Positions 5,820-61,163 of a stretch of 64,000 bases of DNA are shown piece by piece (the stretch's first letter is position 1; the number at the start of each line of letters is the position of its first letter). The notes under the pieces were generated by a model. The model searched no databases. It saw nothing but the letters and a program-made list of their open reading frames with translations, and was not told where the DNA came from. A program made the translations under genes and the position numbers. This DNA is from Minisyncoccota bacterium. GTDB taxonomy: Bacteria; Patescibacteriota; Minisyncoccia; Phycocordibacterales; UBA9973. Where the stretch lies: the NCBI GenBank assembly GCA_041666225.1, contig JBAYHJ010000001.1, positions 1,881 through 65,880 on the forward strand. The letters run 5' to 3'.

Positions 5820-6548
5820 TTACCGAAGCCTTGCTTCGGTAGGTTCTATTTCTTCTATCTCTAACCATTCAAATATTTCTTTCTTGAAAATATTTGGGTC
5901 CTCAAAATAATCAGGGAATTTCTCTTTATTTAAAATCAAATTTTCTGGTCTTTTAGATAAAAGATAATCATTATAACTACTCCATTTGTATGAATTAAGA
6001 AAATTAATAGCTTCTGTTTTATTATTTATCCCTACTTCCTTCCAGTCAGATTGAATCAATTTAATAGGATTTAAGTGTATATATGAAAATAAATATTTTG
6101 CTTGTATTTCATCTTCAATATGAATAGATTTAAATTTACCTTCAAATAAAGACCCTGTTCTGTTATGTTTTTTATTAAAATATTTTGCATATGCGGTACA
6201 GAGTTTTCCCATAAATTCAGTTATATTATTCCTCTCTTCATCTTTCCCATTAGACCTACCGAAGCCTTGCTTCGGTAAAGCTATTAAATACAAGTGGAAA
6301 TGGTTGGGCATCAGTACCCATGCACCAATAGCTACTAACTGGTCCCCCCTTTCAAAATCCCAAGCACTTATTTTGGGTTGAATGATATCATCTTTAAAAT
6401 TAATTCCTTTGGTTGAATTACAAAGAAATAAAAGCTTGATAAAGCGATCTCTATCTTCATCATCAAGAAAGATTATTTGTTTATTGTTTCCTCTATTGTA
6501 AATATGATAATATTCACCATCCACAAGTGGAACTTTTCTTAAAGACAT
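5820..6548 (-). CDS. REP-associated tyrosine transposase (RAYT, IS200/IS605 TnpA-like HuH-Y1), copy 1
   Basis: 242 aa; N-terminal YHIYNRGNNKQIIF, HuH motif LMPNHFHLYL, C-terminal WSSY...Y motif; flanked and interrupted by REP1 palindromes. Confidence 0.8.
   Translation of the reverse strand: MSLRKVPLVDGEYYHIYNRGNNKQIIFLDDEDRDRFIKLLFLCNSTKGINFKDDIIQPKISAWDFERGDQLVAIGAWVLMPNHFHLYLIALPKQGFGRSNGKDEERNNITEFMGKLCTAYAKYFNKKHNRTGSLFEGKFKSIHIEDEIQAKYLFSYIHLNPIKLIQSDWKEVGINNKTEAINFLNSYKWSSYNDYLLSKRPENLILNKEKFPDYFEDPNIFKKEIFEWLEIEEIEPTEARLR
5821..5841. repeat. REP1 palindrome taccgaagccttgcttcggta (copy a)
   Basis: perfect 8-bp arms; copies at 6256..6276, 6573..6593, 24612..24632. Confidence 0.8.
6256..6276. 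repeat. REP1 palindrome (copy b), located in-frame inside the RAYT-1 ORF (translates LPKQGFGRS)
   Basis: sequence identity to other REP1 copies. Confidence 0.8.
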
Positions 6549-6572
6549 ATATTACATTATACTACAAAGGTT

Positions 6573-6593
6573 TACCGAAGCAAGGCTTCGGTG
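6573..6593. repeat. REP1 palindrome (copy c, loop inverted: taccgaagcaaggcttcggtg)
   Basis: sequence. Confidence 0.75.
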
Positions 6594-17459: not shown

Positions 17460-17506
17460 GAAGTAGCGAGGTATTTCTTCCGGAAGAAGTAATTCCTCGC
17501 TACAAC
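17460..17506. repeat. nested hairpin gtagcgagg-tatttcttccggaagaagtaatt-cctcgctac; related copy at 30755..30800
   Basis: sequence. Confidence 0.5.
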
Positions 17507-17536
17507 AATAATTCCCCAGAAAATTTCAACAATAAA

Positions 17537-17570
17537 AAAGACTGCTTCAAAAAGAAGCAGTCGATTTCAT
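17537..17570. terminator. hairpin gactgcttc-aaaaa-gaagcagtc downstream of lipoprotein gene
   Basis: sequence. Confidence 0.65.
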
Positions 17571-17588
17571 TTTAATCCAAATAAATGG

Positions 17589-18554
17589 TTATTTCGTTTG
17601 AAGACGTACAAAAGTTTCCCTAGTAGCATCTTGTTGACCACCTGGGTGGTAAACCCAAACCAAAGTATCTTGAGTAATGATGATGTCGAAATTATTATAC
17701 TCATCAACCGTCAATATAGATCCCCGTAAAGTCCATGGACCTTCTTGAGTTCGATCCTCAGTTCCACAACGAATTTCTCCGTTGTCATATACCACTTTTT
17801 TGGGTGAAAAATAAAATGTCCTTAAATCATCTTTCCTGCAATCACTTATAGTTCCTTCATACCAAGGTAATCCGGGTCCATCCTGAAATTCCAACTTAAC
17901 CATTTTCCATGGTCCAGCACAGAGATATGCTTCATCCTGTGTTGGTGGAATTTGTTGTGCTACCACAACAGTGATACTTTCAGTGACTTCACCTCCAGGA
18001 CCTATAACTTTGAAGTCATAAGTCTTAGTTTCGGTAACGGTAAAATTAAACGTTACCGGTGAATTTTCATATTTTATACCATTGAGCTCAAGAGCCCCAT
18101 TGGTAAAAATACAATTTATCACAACTGGTCCTCCAAAGTAAGGAAGGGTATCAATCACTTGGTCATTAAAAGTAAACGAGATGTTGATTGTGGGAGGAAG
18201 AGGATTCGCAGGCACGGTCACCGTCAAATACTTCTGGCTTTTTACACCAGAAGCGTTCTCAACGATAAAGGTAAGGAGTTTAGTCTCACCTTTTTTCATT
18301 GAAAAAATAGTATCTCCGTTTGGGGTTCTAAGATTGTCCCCATTAACAGTTCCTTTAACCACATTTTGCGTGATCCAGGATACCGTTACCGAAACGGTTA
18401 CGCTTTTTGAATCGGTCGTGCCGATAACAAAAGTCGGAGTAATTGTCGGTTTACCCACCGACACGGGTGTTTCTGGCTTATCTTTTTCACATCCTACAAG
18501 CAGCAGGGAGAGAAAAAGACCCAAAAATGCGAGCATTCTCATCATCTTTTTCAT
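17589..18554 (-). CDS. secreted lipoprotein (lipobox LLVGC)
   Basis: 321 aa; signal peptide + Cys lipobox; beta-rich Thr/Val sequence. Confidence 0.7.
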   Translation of the reverse strand: MKKMMRMLAFLGLFLSLLLVGCEKDKPETPVSVGKPTITPTFVIGTTDSKSVTVSVTVSWITQNVVKGTVNGDNLRTPNGDTIFSMKKGETKLLTFIVENASGVKSQKYLTVTVPANPLPPTINISFTFNDQVIDTLPYFGGPVVINCIFTNGALELNGIKYENSPVTFNFTVTETKTYDFKVIGPGGEVTESITVVVAQQIPPTQDEAYLCAGPWKMVKLEFQDGPGLPWYEGTISDCRKDDLRTFYFSPKKVVYDNGEIRCGTEDRTQEGPWTLRGSILTVDEYNNFDIIITQDTLVWVYHPGGQQDATRETFVRLQTK

Positions 18555-18754
18555 GATTTATTTAGTGAATATTTGGATTATTTATTTTTGATAAGATTCG
18601 TTTAAGTTTCTCCCGACAAATTCCTCATCTCTGGAAGTCCGACTTTCTTAATTTTCTATAAACCAACTTAATCAATTTAATGAAGTCTGACTTCCTTAAA
18701 TTTTGAATAAATAGGCTTTTTATCAAGAAAAACTTAAACAAATCCAAACAATTA

Positions 18755-18798
18755 TTATTTACCTAATTATCTAATTAATAAAGCTTCGTGTCAAGGAT
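18755..18798 (-). promoter_or_regulatory. candidate sigma70 promoter for the lipoprotein gene (minus strand ttgaca-N17-gataat)
   Basis: sequence; leaves a ~200-nt leader containing degenerate REP2 half-sites. Confidence 0.35.
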
Positions 18799-18872
18799 TT
18801 TCACTCCATTTATCCACTTTTTATCCCCAGTCCCAAATACCCCCAAAACCCATTAATCCCAAGCCTCCAAAT

Positions 18873-18896
18873 TGTTGGAAGTCGGACTTCCAACAT
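18873..18896. repeat. REP2 palindrome tgttggaagtcggacttccaaca
   Basis: copies at 19529..19557, 19773..19800, 58654..58680, 61013..61035; degenerate half-copies at 18632-18650 and 18683-18700. Confidence 0.8.
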
Positions 18897-18900
18897 TTTG

Positions 18901-18996
18901 TTAACTTCCAACTTAACTTCCAACTTAACTTCCAACTTAACTTCCAACTTAACTTCCAACTTAACTTCCAACTTAACTTCCAACTTAACTTCCAAC
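18901..18996. repeat. tandem repeat, 12-nt unit ttaacttccaac x8 (derived from REP2 half-site)
   Basis: perfect 8 tandem units; produces the spurious EVKL-repeat ORF 18810..18995. Confidence 0.9.
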
Positions 18997-19024
18997 CTTT
19001 AACTTTCCATTTATTTATTCTTAT

Positions 19025-19798
19025 TTATTCTAATGTAGTCCCTGATAAATTATCAATATTAAACGATTCAATCCAGTCGGAAATTTGTTTATACTGTTTA
19101 TCTTCATCTCCAAATAATTCAATCAAAAAATCTTTTTTAATTATCGAGGGAAAATTTTTCTTTCCAATATAATCAAGCAAACTACTCCACCTATAATTCA
19201 AAAGGAATTCTAAAGCTTTTTCAGGGTCAGAAATCTTGCCGTTTCGCCATTCTTTAAATTCAAAGTCGAGTGGATTTAAATGAATATATATAGGGAGGTA
19301 CATAAAGTGTGCATCATTTTCTATGTGAATTGATTTAAATTTGCCCTGGAAAAGCGCTCCGTTTCTTTTGTACTTTTGATTAAAATAATTCGTATAACCA
19401 GTTCCAAGCTTTCTCATAAAATTCGTAATTCCATTTTCTTCTTTTTGTCTAATGAGCATATGAAAATGATTGTCCATCAAACAATAAGCCAAAATCTCCA
19501 CAATCGGCTCTTTCCTCTTGTTTTTTATAATTGTTGGAAGTCCGACTTCCAACAATTTGCTTTGACTTTGGTGACGAGAGATTAAATTATTAATATTAAT
19601 TGAAGGATTTTTATCATTAAATTCATACATATCATGAATAAATCTAAAATTATCTCTTTCATTAATAAAAATATTCCTTTTATCTACCCCTCTGTTGTAA
19701 ATATGATAAATCTCATTTGTGGCAAATTTTGATTTTCTAATTGACATATAACTATTATAACAAATTAAATAAATTGTTGGAAGTCGGACTTCCAACAA
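19025..19798 (-). CDS. REP-associated tyrosine transposase (RAYT), copy 2; probable true start MSIRKSKF at ~19744
   Basis: IYHIYNRGVDKRNIF, HuH CLMDNHFHMLI, C-terminal YRWSSLLDY; REP2 palindrome in-frame at 19529..19557 (LEVGLPTI) and another at the 5' end. Confidence 0.75.
   Translation of the reverse strand: MLEVRLPTIYLICYNSYMSIRKSKFATNEIYHIYNRGVDKRNIFINERDNFRFIHDMYEFNDKNPSININNLISRHQSQSKLLEVGLPTIIKNKRKEPIVEILAYCLMDNHFHMLIRQKEENGITNFMRKLGTGYTNYFNQKYKRNGALFQGKFKSIHIENDAHFMYLPIYIHLNPLDFEFKEWRNGKISDPEKALEFLLNYRWSSLLDYIGKKNFPSIIKKDFLIELFGDEDKQYKQISDWIESFNIDNLSGTTLE
19529..19557. repeat. REP2 palindrome inside RAYT-2 coding sequence
   Basis: aattgttggaagtccgacttccaacaatt. Confidence 0.8.
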
Positions 19799-19800
19799 TT
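19773..19800. repeat. REP2 palindrome at RAYT-2 5' end
   Basis: sequence. Confidence 0.8.
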
Positions 19801-19979
19801 GACTTTTTGGGGTGATTATAATAACATTTGTGAGTAGTAAGTCCGTTCTCGAACCGGGCTTTTATTTTTAGAAAACCATGAAAATGGCTCCTGAAAAAAA
19901 TTTAATAGTTAGTAAAATTTAATAAAAACAATTTTTAATTTTAATAATTTATTTTAATTAATAATTCGTAATAATTCAT

Positions 19980-21170
19980 ATGTTGGATTTAAAAACAATG
20001 AAGTCTGCTCTAGAGCAACTCGAGCAGGAACGCAAAATACCGCGTGAAAAAATTATAGATGCTATCGAGCAAGCACTCGCAGCCGCTTATAAAAAAGACT
20101 ACGGTAAAAAAGGTCAAATTATTCGTGCAAAGATAGATATCGAATCTGGTGTAATGGAATTTCATCAAATCAAAATCGTCGTCGATGATTCGCTTGTCAG
20201 AATGACGCAAGAAGACGATGAAGATGAGGAAGAAATCGCAGAAGACGATGAGAGAGTTCGCTTCAACGAAGAACATCATATCCTAATTGAGGATGCTAAA
20301 AAAATAAAAAGTGATGTTGTGCCGGGTGAAGAATTAATCTTCCCTCTTGAGAATAAAGATGACTATGGACGCATCGCCGCACAAACAGCAAAACAAGTTA
20401 TTATTCAAAAAATCCGCGAAGCAGAACGTGGTGCTATTATCGACGAGTATGGAAGTAAAGAAGGAGAAATCATAAATGGTTTCGTTTCAAAAATGGAACG
20501 TGGAATTGTTTATATTGATTTCAATCGTGCCACTGGAATAATTTTACCCGAAGAACAAATCCCTGGAGAATTTTATCGCCGAGGAGAAAGAATTCGTGCT
20601 TATCTTTATTCTGTTGAAGAAACTCCTCGTGGAGTAAATCTAAAACTTTCCCGCACTCATCCTGAATTAATCGAAGGATTATTTGCAATGGAGGCTCCTG
20701 AAATCGCATCCGGTGTAGTTGAGATAAAATCGATCGCTCGTGAAGCCGGAAGTCGTTCAAAGATTGCCGTATTTTCAAATGACGAACATGTAGACCCTGT
20801 TGGATCATGTGTTGGTCAAAAAGGAGTTCGTGTCACTACTGTCATGAGTGAACTAAACGGTGAAAAGATCGATATTATTCCTTGGTCTCCTGATCCTGAA
20901 ACTTACATTGCAAGTGCAATCTCACCAGCCAATGTTTTAAAAATCGAAGTAAACGAGTCTGAACATAAAGCAATTCTCGAAGTTGCAAACGATCAGCTCT
21001 CTCTTGCAATCGGAAAAGGTGGACAAAATGTTCGTCTTGCTGCCAAGCTTACAGGTTGGAGAATTGATATTAAAAGTGTAGAAGCAAAGGGTGATGAACC
21101 TAGAGAAGTAATCGGTAGTGATGATATACTAGATGTAGATGATGGTATCGTTGATGACGGTACAAATTAG
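19980..21170 (+). CDS. nusA: transcription termination/antitermination factor NusA
   Basis: 396 aa; NusA N-domain, S1 and two KH domains (GSCVGQKGVRV, IGKGGQNVRLAAKLTGWRIDI). Confidence 0.9.
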   Translation: MLDLKTMKSALEQLEQERKIPREKIIDAIEQALAAAYKKDYGKKGQIIRAKIDIESGVMEFHQIKIVVDDSLVRMTQEDDEDEEEIAEDDERVRFNEEHHILIEDAKKIKSDVVPGEELIFPLENKDDYGRIAAQTAKQVIIQKIREAERGAIIDEYGSKEGEIINGFVSKMERGIVYIDFNRATGIILPEEQIPGEFYRRGERIRAYLYSVEETPRGVNLKLSRTHPELIEGLFAMEAPEIASGVVEIKSIAREAGSRSKIAVFSNDEHVDPVGSCVGQKGVRVTTVMSELNGEKIDIIPWSPDPETYIASAISPANVLKIEVNESEHKAILEVANDQLSLAIGKGGQNVRLAAKLTGWRIDIKSVEAKGDEPREVIGSDDILDVDDGIVDDGTN

Positions 21171-24611: not shown

Positions 24612-24632
24612 CACCGAAGCAAGGCTTCGGTA
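24612..24632. repeat. REP1 palindrome (copy d) abutting the hppA 3' fragment
   Basis: caccgaagcaaggcttcggta. Confidence 0.8.
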
Positions 24633-58655: not shown

Positions 58656-58680
58656 TGTTGGAAGTCGGACTTCCAACATT
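58654..58680. repeat. REP2 palindrome immediately after the comM stop codon
   Basis: aatgttggaagtcggacttccaacatt. Confidence 0.8.
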
Positions 58681-58799
58681 TTAAATTTCTTTATCGAGGC
58701 GCTTGGCTTCAGCCCAAGAAAGTTCGTAAATTTTTTTCATCGCATCAGCAATTTCAGCATTATTTTGTAAAGCTAATAAAAGATGTATTATTAATAGAT

Positions 58800-59218: not shown

Positions 59219-60904
59219 ATGACAAAAGAAAAATGCAAAACATGTGAGAAAGATTTTGTAATAAGAGATGAAGATCTTGTTTTTTATGAACAAATGAAAA
59301 CAGTCCCTCCAGTTGATTGCCCTGATTGTCGTATGGCAAGAAGGTTAGTTTTTCGCAATGAAAGAACCTTATATAAAAGAACTTGTGATCTTTGTAAAAA
59401 AGATATGGTCGCTTTGTATACTCAAGAATCAAAATTTAAAGTTTACTGTCATGATTGTTGGTGGAGCGATAATTGGAATCCAAAAGATTATGCACAAGAT
59501 TATGATTTCTCAAAAACATTTTTTGAACAGTTTAGAGAATTAATGATGAAAGTTCCACGGATTGGAATGCTGGCATTTAATAATGTTCGAAGTGAATACA
59601 CAAATGGCTCAGCCGAAAACAAAGATTGTTATTTAATTTTTGCAGCTGATTATAATGAGGACTGCTTATATAGCAGATTACTTCAACGTGACAAGGGTTG
59701 TGTAGATTGCGCCTTCCTCCATGAATCAGAGTTGTGTTATGAATGTATCGATACTCGAAAATGTTTTAAATGTATGTATTCGGAACAATGTCAGTCATCA
59801 AGTGATTTATTGTTTTGTTTTAATATGAGAGATTCTCAAAATTGTATTTTTTGTACAAATGGCAGGCATATGTCGAACTATATTCTAAATCAAAAGTGTA
59901 CAAAAGAAGAATATGATAAAAAGAAAAAAGAAATACTTTCAAATTATGAAAGTATTGAAAAAGCTAAAAAAGAATTTATAGAAATAAAAAAGAAGGCTAT
60001 CATGAAATTTACTTCTCAAAGTAAGTGCCACAATGTTACAGGGGACTATATTCACAACTGTTATGATGGAGTTAGGCTTTATGACACTTATGATGCAAAA
60101 AATTGTTCTTATATGAAGGACACCGAGAACCCAACTGACAGCTGGGATTGTAATAATTATTATTACAAATGTCAGTTTGGTTACAATATAATGGGCGCAT
60201 TACAAATTAGTAATTGTAAAAATTGTGCTTTTGTATTTTATTCGAATAATCTGGAATATTGTGAAAATTGTTATCATCTATCAAATGGATTTGGTTGTCT
60301 CGCAATTCGTAAGGGTCAAAATATGATTTTAAATAAAGAATATGAAAAAGAAGAATACCTAAAAATAAGAAAACAAATTGAGGATGAAATGAAAAAAGAT
60401 GGAACTTGGGGTCAATATTTCCCTGCAAGCATCGCTCCTTTCTCATACAACGAAGCGCTCTCACAAGACTTCTTTCCTTTATCAAAAGAAGAAGCAATAA
60501 AAAGAGGTTTTACTTGGCAAGAAAAAACAACTGGAACTTACGGAAAAGAAACCATCGAAAAAGGAGAAATTCCTAATTCTATAGAAAAGGTTACCGAAGC
60601 TATTTTAAAAGAAATTTTAGTTTGTGAAGATTGTAATAAAAATTATCGCCTTGTCCAAGCTGAATTGGAATTTTACAAAAGAATGAATTTACCAATCCCT
60701 CATAAAGATTTTGAGTGTCGTCATCAAGATAGAATGAAAAAAAGAAACACAAAAGAACTTTACCCTCGTTCATGTATGTGTAAAAACGAAAAACATATAA
60801 ATCACAATGGCGTTAATTGTTCAGAAAAACTTGAGACAACTTATGCTCCAGACCGACCAGAAATAATTTATTGTGAAAGTTGTTATCAACAAGAAGTAGC
60901 ATAG
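59219..60904 (+). CDS. cysteine-rich protein with terminal zinc-ribbon modules (paralog B)
   Basis: 561 aa; CKTCEKDF...FYEQMKTVPPVDCPDCRMARRLVFRNERTLYKRTC; same architecture as 40001..41725. Confidence 0.7.
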   Translation: MTKEKCKTCEKDFVIRDEDLVFYEQMKTVPPVDCPDCRMARRLVFRNERTLYKRTCDLCKKDMVALYTQESKFKVYCHDCWWSDNWNPKDYAQDYDFSKTFFEQFRELMMKVPRIGMLAFNNVRSEYTNGSAENKDCYLIFAADYNEDCLYSRLLQRDKGCVDCAFLHESELCYECIDTRKCFKCMYSEQCQSSSDLLFCFNMRDSQNCIFCTNGRHMSNYILNQKCTKEEYDKKKKEILSNYESIEKAKKEFIEIKKKAIMKFTSQSKCHNVTGDYIHNCYDGVRLYDTYDAKNCSYMKDTENPTDSWDCNNYYYKCQFGYNIMGALQISNCKNCAFVFYSNNLEYCENCYHLSNGFGCLAIRKGQNMILNKEYEKEEYLKIRKQIEDEMKKDGTWGQYFPASIAPFSYNEALSQDFFPLSKEEAIKRGFTWQEKTTGTYGKETIEKGEIPNSIEKVTEAILKEILVCEDCNKNYRLVQAELEFYKRMNLPIPHKDFECRHQDRMKKRNTKELYPRSCMCKNEKHINHNGVNCSEKLETTYAPDRPEIIYCESCYQQEVA

Positions 60905-60975: not shown

Positions 60976-61012
60976 ATCTTTTCTTGGCTGAGTATGGGGC
61001 AGTGTCAGGAGT

Positions 61013-61035
61013 GTTGGAAGTCGGACTTCCAACAT
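61013..61035. repeat. REP2 palindrome followed (61047..61080) by a ~30-nt duplicate of the 3' end of the upstream Cys-rich gene (ttattgtgaaagttgttatcaaca)
   Basis: match to 60869..60892. Confidence 0.75.
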
Positions 61036-61163
61036 TTTAGATCTCTTTATTGTGAAAGTTGTTATCAACAGGAGATATATTAGATGGGGATCAAAAAGAG
61101 CGGGTTGGCTTCGCCAACCCGCTCTTTTAATTAGTAATTAGTAATTTTTAATTAGTAATTATT

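What the first reader, a model, noticed from the sequence alone, without database searches (positions are those of the whole stretch)
18600..19810. Second, unrelated REP family (REP2) with its own RAYT, a degraded REP cluster and a REP-derived 12-nt tandem array
The palindrome tgttggaagtc(g/c)gacttccaaca occurs at 18873, 19529, 19773, 58654 and 61013, with degenerate halves at 18632 and 18683. RAYT-2 (19025..19798) has the motifs IYHIYNRG, CLMDNHFHM and YRWSS, and again carries the REP in-frame at 19529-19557 (LEVGLPTI), with another at its 5' end. Directly adjacent is an array of 8 perfect copies of ttaacttccaac (18901..18996), which is half of the REP. Two independent REP/RAYT pairs in one 64-kb window point to an active repeat-spreading system.
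Basis: partly seen in the sequence, partly recalled or inferred. Interest (0 to 1): 0.8.

Follow-up and report, generated by a model that had tools for sequence, protein, structure and literature searches.

The report
Hairpin-flanked tyrosine transposase gene cassette
A small palindromic DNA repeat and the transposase-like gene that goes with it are real, but the copy inside the gene is an old feature shared by thousands of related genes in ultra-small (Patescibacteria) bacteria, not a recent insertion.

Summary
The palindrome TGTTGGAAGTC[G/C]GACTTCCAACA occurs exactly five times (none expected by chance). There are two decayed or variant copies, a perfect 12-nt x 8 array made from one arm, and an ORF with a Y1 (HUH) transposase fold whose best structural match is E. 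coli TnpA-REP.

Two corrections. The real gene is 19025..19747, so the "5' REP" lies upstream of the start codon, apparently in the promoter. The in-frame REP is not a recent insertion.

In about 170 homologous Patescibacteria loci, 85 of 149 complete genes carry a cassette-specific perfect palindrome. It sits about 20-45 nt before the ATG and just after the stop. Often a third, in-frame copy sits at one of three recurrent sites, and RAYT-1 in this window uses a different site from RAYT-2.

In orthologues the 15-nt tip is invariant, even at synonymous sites. The outer stems differ between genomes but match within a genome, which indicates concerted evolution.

The encoded peptide lies in a low-confidence, probably disordered, loop.

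One close relative without the gene has a single solo REP at the same site. Another has a different family member there.

The array is specific to this lineage. Dispersed copies are few, so "active spreading" is overstated.

In-frame REPs inside RAYT genes were already described (Quentin 2018), but for another subclass.

The parts
19772..19800 (.). Upstream REP2 copy. It is a 29-nt perfect palindrome, AATTGTTGGAAGTC(G)GACTTCCAACAATT. It lies between the putative RAYT-2 -10 box and the nusA -35 box (TTGACT at 19799).
   Evidence: ssDNA fold -12.0 kcal/mol, z -8.7. The core starts 46 nt before the ATG in WIN, L161, L162 and L081.
19754..19759 (-). Putative -10 box (TGtTATAAT) ending 6 nt before the ATG, which implies a leaderless mRNA. 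This is an inference.
   Evidence: 58 of 77 homologues with an upstream hairpin have a TATAAT match of at least 5/6 between the hairpin and the ATG. It ends 6 nt (25 genes) or 7 nt (8 genes) before the ATG.
19025..19747 (-). RAYT-2 coding sequence, 240 aa. It is a Y1 HUH transposase with HuH at N93-H96, the catalytic-Tyr motif Y154-IHLNP, and a YRWSS tail.
   Evidence: Pfam Y1_Tnp 3.4e-10. Identical to P0001. Invariant residues. AF2 pLDDT 79.7. Foldseek top hit 4er8_A, TnpA-REP with a REP hairpin.
19529..19557 (.). Internal in-frame REP2 copy. It encodes K64-I73 (KLLEVGLPTI), 16 aa before the HuH motif, at profile position 67 (site a).
   Evidence: the E, V, G and L codons are identical in 5 orthologues, against 30% for other conserved residues. 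Residues 52-76 have pLDDT below 50.
18901..18996 (.). Perfect tandem array of 8 x TTAACTTCCAAC, derived from the REP arm. It lies between the stop codon and the downstream REP.
   Evidence: It is absent from the closest relatives L163 and L168 (88% identity) and from L161, L162, L001 and L081, where the hairpin lies within about 10-50 nt of the stop.
18873..18895 (.). Downstream REP2 copy (23-nt palindrome).
   Evidence: -12.1 kcal/mol, z -5.3.
18674..18702 (.). Variant REP2. The tip GAAGTC-N-GACTTC is kept but the outer stem differs (AATTTAA..TTAAATT).
   Evidence: -7.6 kcal/mol, z -5.7.
18633..18647 (.). Decayed REP2 core (GGAAGTCCGACTTTC) that no longer folds.
   Evidence: z +0.46.
58656..58694 (+). 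Dispersed REP2 copy that starts on the base after the stop codon of a ComM/Mg-chelatase-like gene. It has a 16-nt 3' tail shared with the copy at 61012.
61012..61050 (+). Dispersed REP2 copy between convergent genes, with the same 3' tail (TTTTARATYTCTTTAT).
5820..6593 (-). RAYT-1 cassette with the same architecture and its own palindrome, TACCGAAGC(AAG/CTT)GCTTCGGTA. The copies are upstream at 6573-6593, in frame at 6257-6277 (12 aa after HuH), and at 5821-5841, where the copy encodes the C-terminus and the stop. One dispersed copy lies at 24613-24631.

Best explanation
This is a REPtron-like cassette. It consists of a Y1 (HUH) tyrosine transposase of the RAYT/TIRYT kind together with the short perfect-palindrome hairpin it is matched to.

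One hairpin copy sits in the promoter region, just upstream of an apparently leaderless gene. One sits just after the stop codon. One sits in frame inside the gene, in a loop that is modelled with low confidence and is probably disordered.

By analogy with TnpA-REP and IS608 TnpA, I infer that the dimeric enzyme binds these hairpins when the DNA is single-stranded, and that it cuts and rejoins beside them. This would occasionally seed new intergenic copies; two such copies are seen here, both at the 3' ends of genes. It would also keep the cassette's own three copies alike, possibly helped by template switching at the palindromes.

On this reading the internal copy is an old insertion that is tolerated and continually re-homogenised, not a recent hit.

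The hairpins also mark the boundaries at which the whole cassette is lost or replaced. The 12-nt array is a recent slippage product of one hairpin arm.
For: Shown:
- Y1 fold with intact HuH and Tyr motifs, and TnpA-REP as the best structural match. NCBIfam gives REP_Tyr_transpos 42 bits against IS200 15 bits.
- The palindrome is present 5 times where none is expected.
- 85 of 149 complete homologous genes carry a repeated perfect palindrome specific to their cassette, lying before the ATG and/or after the stop. In-frame copies cluster at profile positions 59-72 (n=31), 162-177 (n=8) and 96 (RAYT-1).
- An unbiased folding-energy scan puts the most stable window in bin 60-69 in 29 of 149 genes.
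- All three reading frames are used (17/16/10), and loop orientation is random (34 inverted, 33 same).
- In 5 orthologues the tip GGAAGTC-N-GACTTCC is invariant. Four of four hairpin codons are identical, against 30% for other conserved residues, and the third base of the Pro codon covaries with its pairing partner.
- Outer-stem identity is 0.75 within genomes and 0.38 between genomes.
- The hairpin-coded residues fall in the segment with pLDDT below 50.
- In a relative with 92% identical NusA the gene is missing and one solo REP2 remains. Another relative holds a different family member, 43% identical, with its own hairpins at the same site.
- Dispersed copies outside the cassettes number 18 in 567 kb.
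- The array is absent from relatives at 88% identity, while arm-derived arrays recur in L007 and L149.

Inferred: hairpin binding and cleavage, copying to new sites, homogenisation by the enzyme, and slippage as the origin of the array.
Against: - There is no biochemical evidence.
- No GT[AG]G or other conserved guide sequence lies beside the hairpins.
- The score is below the NCBIfam RAYT cut-off (42 against 80).
- Copy number is far below that of classical REPs.
- Perfect dyad symmetry and a position over the promoter fit a double-stranded operator equally well.
- 64 of 149 homologues show no repeated perfect hairpin.
- The internal outer stem has decayed in L161 and L162 and in L004 and L013, so homogenisation is not uniform.
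- The codon test rests on only 4 codons (chance about 0.008).
- The sequences are related to one another, so the counts are not independent.
Confidence: 0.55

Rival explanations
1. The upstream and internal copies are selected regulatory sites. The protein binds its own promoter hairpin or palindrome, and a copy inside its own gene or mRNA, to limit its own expression. The in-frame copy is then kept for this function and not merely tolerated.
For: - The upstream copy lies at a fixed distance from the ATG (core at -46 in 4 orthologues), over the -35/spacer region of an inferred leaderless promoter, and it abuts the nusA -35 box.
- The internal tip is conserved at synonymous sites.
- In-frame copies have been gained at three separate sites and are retained across large clades.
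Against: - Many family members have only the flanking pair (39 of 149).
- Internal outer stems decay in several lineages.
- There is no excess of G.T over A.C mismatches that would point to an mRNA structure.
- The promoter assignment is only a consensus match.
Confidence: 0.2
2. It is an autonomous insertion sequence of the IS200/IS605 type. The two outer hairpins are its left and right ends, and the whole gene moves.
For: - The arrangement is hairpin, gene, hairpin.
- A related genome shows an empty site with one hairpin.
- A different family member occupies the same site in another related genome.
Against: - There is one copy of each type in 64 kb, and the two genes present are only 38% identical.
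- Orthologues of 64-88% identity sit at the same syntenic site.
- The Tyr motif is Y-x3-NP, as in class 2, not Y-x3-Q (PMC6006769).
- The NCBIfam IS200 score is 15 bits.
- The two ends are identical perfect palindromes, not distinct imperfect left and right ends.
- There is no tnpB.
- The protein is 240 aa, not about 150.
Confidence: 0.1
3. The palindromes are only double-stranded operator sites for a dimeric DNA-binding protein that no longer transposes anything. The few dispersed copies are further regulatory sites.
For: - The sites have perfect dyad symmetry with a 1-nt centre whose orientation is free.
- One copy sits over the promoter.
- Copy number is low.
- The C-terminal domain is helical. 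Quentin et al. report HTH-like tails in subclass 2.1 (PMC6006769).
Against: - The HuH and Tyr catalytic residues are invariant across the family.
- The copies after the stop codon and inside the gene have no obvious operator role.
- The copies evolve in concert, and a solo-REP footprint exists.
- Arm-derived arrays occur beside the hairpins.
Confidence: 0.1
4. The internal palindrome is conserved because the peptide EVGLP matters to the protein, and its likeness to the intergenic repeats is secondary or coincidental.
For: E67, V68 and L70 are at least 90% conserved among homologues of 49-77% identity.
Against: - The same position holds quite different palindromes and peptides in other clades.
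- All three reading frames are used.
- Codons are identical in orthologues, and the outer stem covaries while changing the amino acids, for example L/T to S/K.
- The segment is modelled with low confidence.
- The non-coding copies are identical to it.
Confidence: 0.02

Closest known systems
E. coli REPtron: TnpA-REP (RayT/YafM) with flanking REP/BIME (Nunvar 2010, PMC2817692; Ton-Hoang 2012, PMC3333891; structure 4ER8, PMC3479197)
   Same: - Y1 HUH fold, with 4ER8 the best structural match.
- The gene is flanked by its cognate hairpins.
- Several divergent pairs can coexist in one genome, each with its own repeat.
- Dispersed copies lie at the 3' ends of genes.
   Different: - There is no GTAG head and no bulge. 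The palindromes are perfect, with a 1-3 nt centre.
- Copies number a few per 64 kb, not hundreds per genome.
- The protein is 240 aa with a long helical tail.
- There is an extra in-frame copy.
- The host is Patescibacteria.
TnpA-Y1 subclass 2.4 (Bertels group 4) with REPs inserted in frame inside tnpA-REP (Quentin et al. 2018, PMC6006769, section 12)
   Same: - REP copies lie inside the transposase gene without breaking the frame, in a peripheral variable region.
- RAYT-1's site (12 aa after HuH) matches their 'between HuH and Y' location.
   Different: - The signature motifs differ: WQ and YIxNNP, about 194 aa and GTAG 'double-foot' REPs there, against FQ and YIHLNP, about 240 aa and headless perfect palindromes here.
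- RAYT-2's site is before the HuH motif, and a third site lies after the Tyr motif.
- That paper calls the feature unique to subclass 2.4.
TnpA-Y1 subclass 2.1 / TIRYT (Di Nocera 2013, PMC3733652; Quentin 2018)
   Same: - The signature motifs match: NH[YF]H, FQ, Y[IV]HLNP, about 238 aa and an SS tail (against Table 1 of PMC6006769).
- The flanking repeats are low-copy, and some TIRs are described as self-complementary.
   Different: - Subclass 2.1 is reported to have no REP-like structures, and TIRYT TIRs mostly share GGGGWSAS.
- Here the flanks are short perfect hairpins with a shared GTY-S-RAC tip, and in-frame copies are present.
IS200 (Salmonella) and IS608
   Same: - A Y1 transposase with subterminal hairpins.
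- A hairpin upstream of the gene that can insulate or limit expression.
   Different: See the rival explanation: the copies are single and syntenic, the Tyr motif is of class 2, and the two ends are identical.
Rickettsia palindromic elements (RPE) inserted in frame in protein genes (cited in PMC3733652)
   Same: A palindromic repeat is tolerated in frame within a coding sequence.
   Different: RPEs are 100-150 bp and occur in many unrelated genes. Here the copy is 23-29 nt, lies in the repeat's own transposase gene, and evolves in concert with the flanking copies.

Membership tests
Y1 HUH transposase superfamily (Pfam Y1_Tnp) | HuH motif and catalytic Tyr on the Y1 fold | tested here: met
   Pfam 40.5 bits against a cut-off of 23. 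N93, H94, H96, Y154, H156 and N158 are invariant. The Foldseek top hits are 4er8, 2a6o and 2xqc.
RAYT / TnpA-REP (class 2 TnpA-Y1) | Tyr motif Y-x3-NP, and a gene flanked by its cognate palindromes | tested here: met
   The motif is YIHLNP. REP2 lies at 19772-19800 and 18873-18895. The same layout is seen in 85 of 149 homologues.
RAYT / TnpA-REP (class 2 TnpA-Y1) | Passes the NCBIfam equivalog model REP_Tyr_transpos | tested here: not met
   42.2 bits against a cut-off of 80. It is still the best-scoring model.
Canonical REP | A 5' GT[AG]G (or CGTC) tetranucleotide at the foot of the hairpin | tested here: not met
   No conserved flanking bases are found in 223 hairpins. The REP2 flanks are AAT, TAA and GAG.
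Canonical REP | High copy number dispersed in intergenic DNA (typically more than 100 per genome) | tested here: inconclusive
   There are 2 dispersed copies and 2 decayed copies in 64 kb, and 0.3 per 10 kb around the homologues. The whole genome was not available.
RAYT (Bertels 2017) | Single copy, with the chromosomal position inherited vertically | tested here: inconclusive
   The gene is syntenic (between nusA and a lipoprotein gene) in L161, L162, L168 and L171. It is absent in L164 and L170 and replaced by a paralogue in L169.
RAYT / TnpA-REP | Cleaves and rejoins single-stranded REP DNA | not testable with these tools
   This needs purified protein.
TnpA-Y1 subclass 2.1 / TIRYT | NH[YF]H, FQ, Y[IV]HLNP, about 238 aa and an SS tail | tested here: met
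   The protein has NHFH, LFQG, YIHLNP, 240 aa and RWSS. The comparison is with the motifs in Table 1 of PMC6006769 only, not with their sequences.
TnpA-Y1 subclass 2.1 / TIRYT | No REP-like hairpins; TIRs with GGGGWSAS | tested here: not met
   Perfect hairpins flank the gene, and no GGGGWSAS is present.
TnpA-Y1 subclass 2.4 | A REP inserted in frame between the HuH and Tyr motifs; WQ and YIxNNP motifs | tested here: not met
   An in-frame REP is present, but in RAYT-2 it lies before the HuH motif (profile position 67). The motifs are FQ and YIHLNP. RAYT-1's site does lie between HuH and Tyr.
IS200/IS605 insertion sequence | Multiple near-identical copies, Y-x3-Q, about 150 aa, and distinct left and right ends | tested here: not met
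   see also the synteny results.

The most novel reading that the evidence does not exclude
In Patescibacteria, the trio of hairpins (promoter, in-frame, after the stop) is a selected self-control circuit. The domesticated transposase recognises a copy of its own substrate inside its own gene and promoter. This would limit its expression or allow programmed loss of the cassette, and the enzyme would actively keep all copies in step. If so, the concerted evolution of the trio would be a natural record of RAYT activity in cis.
Probability: 0.2. Interest if true: 0.75.

Novelty: new variant of a known kind. Interest (0 to 1): 0.55.

Why it matters
What RAYTs do, and how REPs are copied, are still open questions. 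Here a very large, unstudied Patescibacteria branch of the family shows three things in plain sequence. More than 6,000 relatives of RAYT-2 and more than 5,000 of RAYT-1 were found in the database.

1. Hairpins are matched to each gene, although the motif class (subclass 2.1-like) is reported to lack REPs.
2. In-frame copies lie at three recurrent sites and are constrained at the DNA level.
3. There is concerted evolution, a solo-hairpin empty site, and replacement of the cassette at one locus.

These are footprints of the enzyme acting on its own neighbourhood, and they give simple in vitro and population-sequencing tests.

There is also a practical point. The insert after the HuH motif drops RAYT-1 below Pfam's Y1_Tnp threshold, and most close relatives carry no Pfam hit. 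Many of them are therefore annotated as hypothetical proteins.

Tried and rejected
- Rfam scan of 17500-20500: no hits at E up to 1.
- tRNA scan of 18500-20100: none.
- PDB sequence search with the family profile: no hits. The fold search was needed instead.
- Search for a conserved guide tetranucleotide beside 223 hairpins: none found.
- G.T versus A.C mismatch asymmetry, as a test for an mRNA-level hairpin: 5 versus 5 internal and 5 versus 6 downstream. This is uninformative.
- P0108 (150 aa) was checked as a possible natural deletion between hairpins. It is a scaffold gap of Ns.
- P0036's contig had no DNA available.
Close orthologues were therefore reached through exact-protein look-ups and through NusA orthologues.
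- Site-b hairpins are not simple length insertions. The segment median is 35 residues with the hairpin and 41 without it.
- A recent-insertion reading of the in-frame REP is rejected because of its conservation in orthologues.
Full report
**1. The observation**

The 23-nt palindrome TGTTGGAAGTC[G/C]GACTTCCAACA occurs exactly at 18873, 19532, 19775, 58656 and 61012. No matches occurred in 100 dinucleotide-preserving shuffles. At 19529-19557 and 19772-19800 it extends to 29 nt.

Weaker cores lie at 18633 and 18681. The second is a variant REP with a different outer stem that still folds. The first has decayed.

As single-stranded DNA the full copies fold at -9.3 to -12.3 kcal/mol, with z scores of -5.3 to -8.8.

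The array at 18901-18996 is 8.0 perfect copies of TTAACTTCCAAC and shares 9 nt with the REP arm.

**2. The gene**

ORF 19025..19798(-) carries the quoted motifs and passes Pfam Y1_Tnp. The database protein identical to it, P0001 (Ca. Paceibacterota MAG, 131-kb contig), is 240 aa and starts at MSIRK, as do most of the 120 listed homologues. The gene is therefore 19025..19747, and the "5' REP" is upstream of it.

An AlphaFold model (pLDDT 79.7) matches E. coli TnpA-REP bound to a REP hairpin best (4er8_A, E 3.6e-5). The IS608 and ISDra2 TnpA structures come next.

NCBIfam ranks REP_Tyr_transpos first, at 42 bits. This is below its cut-off of 80 but well above IS200 at 15 bits.

**3. The in-frame copy is old and family-wide**

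In the alignment of homologues at 49-77% identity, "EVGLP" is nearly invariant. I fetched 80 genome loci and 80 metagenome loci, and later several more by exact-protein look-up.

At the homologous position many genes carry a strong palindrome, but with a different sequence in different clades. In each such locus the same palindrome recurs just upstream of the ATG and just after the stop.

Mapping onto a profile of the family covered 149 complete genes.
- 85 genes have a repeated perfect hairpin.
- In-frame copies cluster at profile positions 59-72 (31 copies), 162-177 (8) and 96 (RAYT-1 of this window).
- A further 10 copies overlap the stop codon.

An unbiased 39-nt folding scan puts the most stable window of the gene in bin 60-69 in 29 of 149 genes, and in bin 160-169 in 16.

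All three reading frames are used (17/16/10), and loop orientation is random between copies (34 inverted, 33 same). The hairpin tips share GTY-S-RAC across the family. No conserved guide sequence flanks them.

**4. RAYT-1 has the same architecture**

RAYT-1 (5820..6548-) has its own palindrome upstream (6573-6593), in frame 12 aa after the HuH motif (6257-6277), and at the stop (5821-5841). One dispersed copy lies at 24613.

The insert is a clear 13-aa addition: 34 residues in that segment, against a median of 21 and a maximum of 31 in the 148 other genes. It is conserved in the RAYT-1 clade. It lowers the Pfam score to 17.7 bits, below the cut-off.

**5. The constraint is at the nucleic-acid level, and the copies evolve in concert**

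Five orthologues (the window, L161, L162, L001 and L081; 64-75% identical to P0001) all keep GGAAGTC-N-GACTTCC at the upstream, internal and downstream positions. Their outer stems differ between genomes (TTGTT, TTTGC, CTATA, TCTTT, ATATCT) and pair correctly.

Of 109 residues that are identical in all five and have degenerate codons, 30% use the same codon in all five. The E, V, G and L codons of the hairpin are 4 of 4 identical. The third base of the Pro codon varies (A, G, T) and covaries with its partner (T, C, A).

Outer-stem identity is 0.75 within genomes and 0.38 between them.

The hairpin-coded residues K64-I73 fall within residues 52-76, which have pLDDT below 50.

**6. Promoter context (inferred)**

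In 58 of 77 genes with an upstream hairpin, a TATAAT match of at least 5/6 lies between the hairpin and the ATG. It ends 6 nt (25 genes) or 7 nt (8 genes) before the ATG, which is the spacing expected for leaderless mRNA.

In the window this box is TGtTATAAT at 19754-19759. The REP fills the space up to the nusA -35 box, TTGACT at 19799.

**7. Locus dynamics**

L161, L162, L168 and L171 show the same gene order as the window: nusA reads away from the RAYT gene, which is followed by a lipoprotein gene of about 290-320 aa and a giant gene that carries a Pfam CARDB hit in most of these loci. L162 continues with the EF-Tu gene and the S10 operon.
- L164 (NusA 92% identical) lacks the RAYT. It has exactly one solo REP2 in the 356-bp intergenic space.
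- L169 (NusA 92%) has a different family member at that site. It is 43% identical to RAYT-2 and 45% to RAYT-1, and is flanked by its own hairpin.
- L170 has neither the RAYT nor the REP.

The hairpins therefore mark the boundaries of loss and replacement.

**8. The array**

The closest relatives, L163 and L168 (88% identical), carry the same REP2, including the same outer stem. Their downstream hairpin lies about 20 nt after the stop, and they have no array. The array is therefore recent and specific to this lineage.

Arm-derived short arrays recur beside other cassettes: L007 (x5.3) and L149 (x3). Similar short arrays occur in L135 (17 nt x 8.1), L019, L072 and L074, but a link to a hairpin arm was not shown for those.

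**9. Spread**

Dispersed copies are few. REP2 has 2 and REP1 has 1 in 64 kb. Around the homologues there are 18 in 567 kb.

The two dispersed REP2 copies lie at gene 3' ends and share a 16-nt tail.

**10. Literature**

- Quentin 2018 (PMC6006769, section 12): in-frame REP insertions inside tnpA-REP are already described, as a "unique feature of subclass 2.4".
- The same paper's Table 1 motifs place the present proteins nearest subclass 2.1 (NH[YF]H, FQ, Y[IV]HLNP, 238 aa, SS), which it reports as lacking REP-like structures.
- Di Nocera 2013 (PMC3733652): TIRYTs have flanking TIRs, some of them self-complementary.
- Bertels 2017 (PMC5581495): flanking repeats of group 1 are low-copy (about 12 occurrences of the flanking 16-mer).
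- No paper in the searchable library links these systems to Patescibacteria.

**11. Verdict**

This is a real REP-like/RAYT-like pair and a new variant of a known kind. The inference of recent, active spreading is not supported.

Noticed in passing
window 5820-6593 and 24613-24631: RAYT-1 has the same three-hairpin layout with its own palindrome. Its 13-aa in-frame insert after the HuH motif drops the Pfam Y1_Tnp score below threshold. Most close relatives carry no Pfam hit, and some are named hypothetical.
   Followed up: partly
window 60868-60897 and 61049-61078: About 30 nt of the 3' end of gene 59219..60904 (tttattgtgaaagttgttatcaaca) is repeated 181 bp downstream, just after the dispersed REP2 at 61012. 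This could be a duplication or an insertion footprint that carries a terminator hairpin and the REP.
   Followed up: no
window 58679-58694 and 61035-61050: The two dispersed REP2 copies share a 16-nt 3' tail (TTTTARATYTCTTTAT) that the cassette copies lack. The unit that spreads may therefore be longer than the palindrome.
   Followed up: partly
window 19838-19870 (+): A stem-loop followed by a U-run lies between the predicted nusA promoter (TTGACT 19799 / TAACAT 19827) and the nusA start. It is conserved in L161-L164, L170 and L173. It looks like a leader terminator, possibly for nusA autoregulation. It is not a tRNA and has no Rfam hit.
   Followed up: partly
L169:1778-2443 with flanks: In a genome whose NusA is 92% identical, the same nusA/lipoprotein intergenic site holds a different family member (43-45% identical), flanked by CTAGCAAGGACCGTCCTTGCTAG. 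This points to cassette replacement or a preferred landing site.
   Followed up: partly
L164:3325-3339: A solo REP2 (ATAGGAAGTCGGACTTCCTAT) is the only trace of the cassette in an otherwise syntenic relative.
   Followed up: yes
L135:950-1086: A 17-nt x 8.1 tandem array (AGGCCCGGCCTCGAACA) lies directly downstream of another family member. This recalls the window's array.
   Followed up: no
L004 (sites a and b): L004 has a decayed palindrome at site a (AATGATTGAAGTTCAACTTCCATCATT) and a perfect copy of its current hairpin at site b. This suggests turnover of in-frame copies between sites.
   Followed up: no
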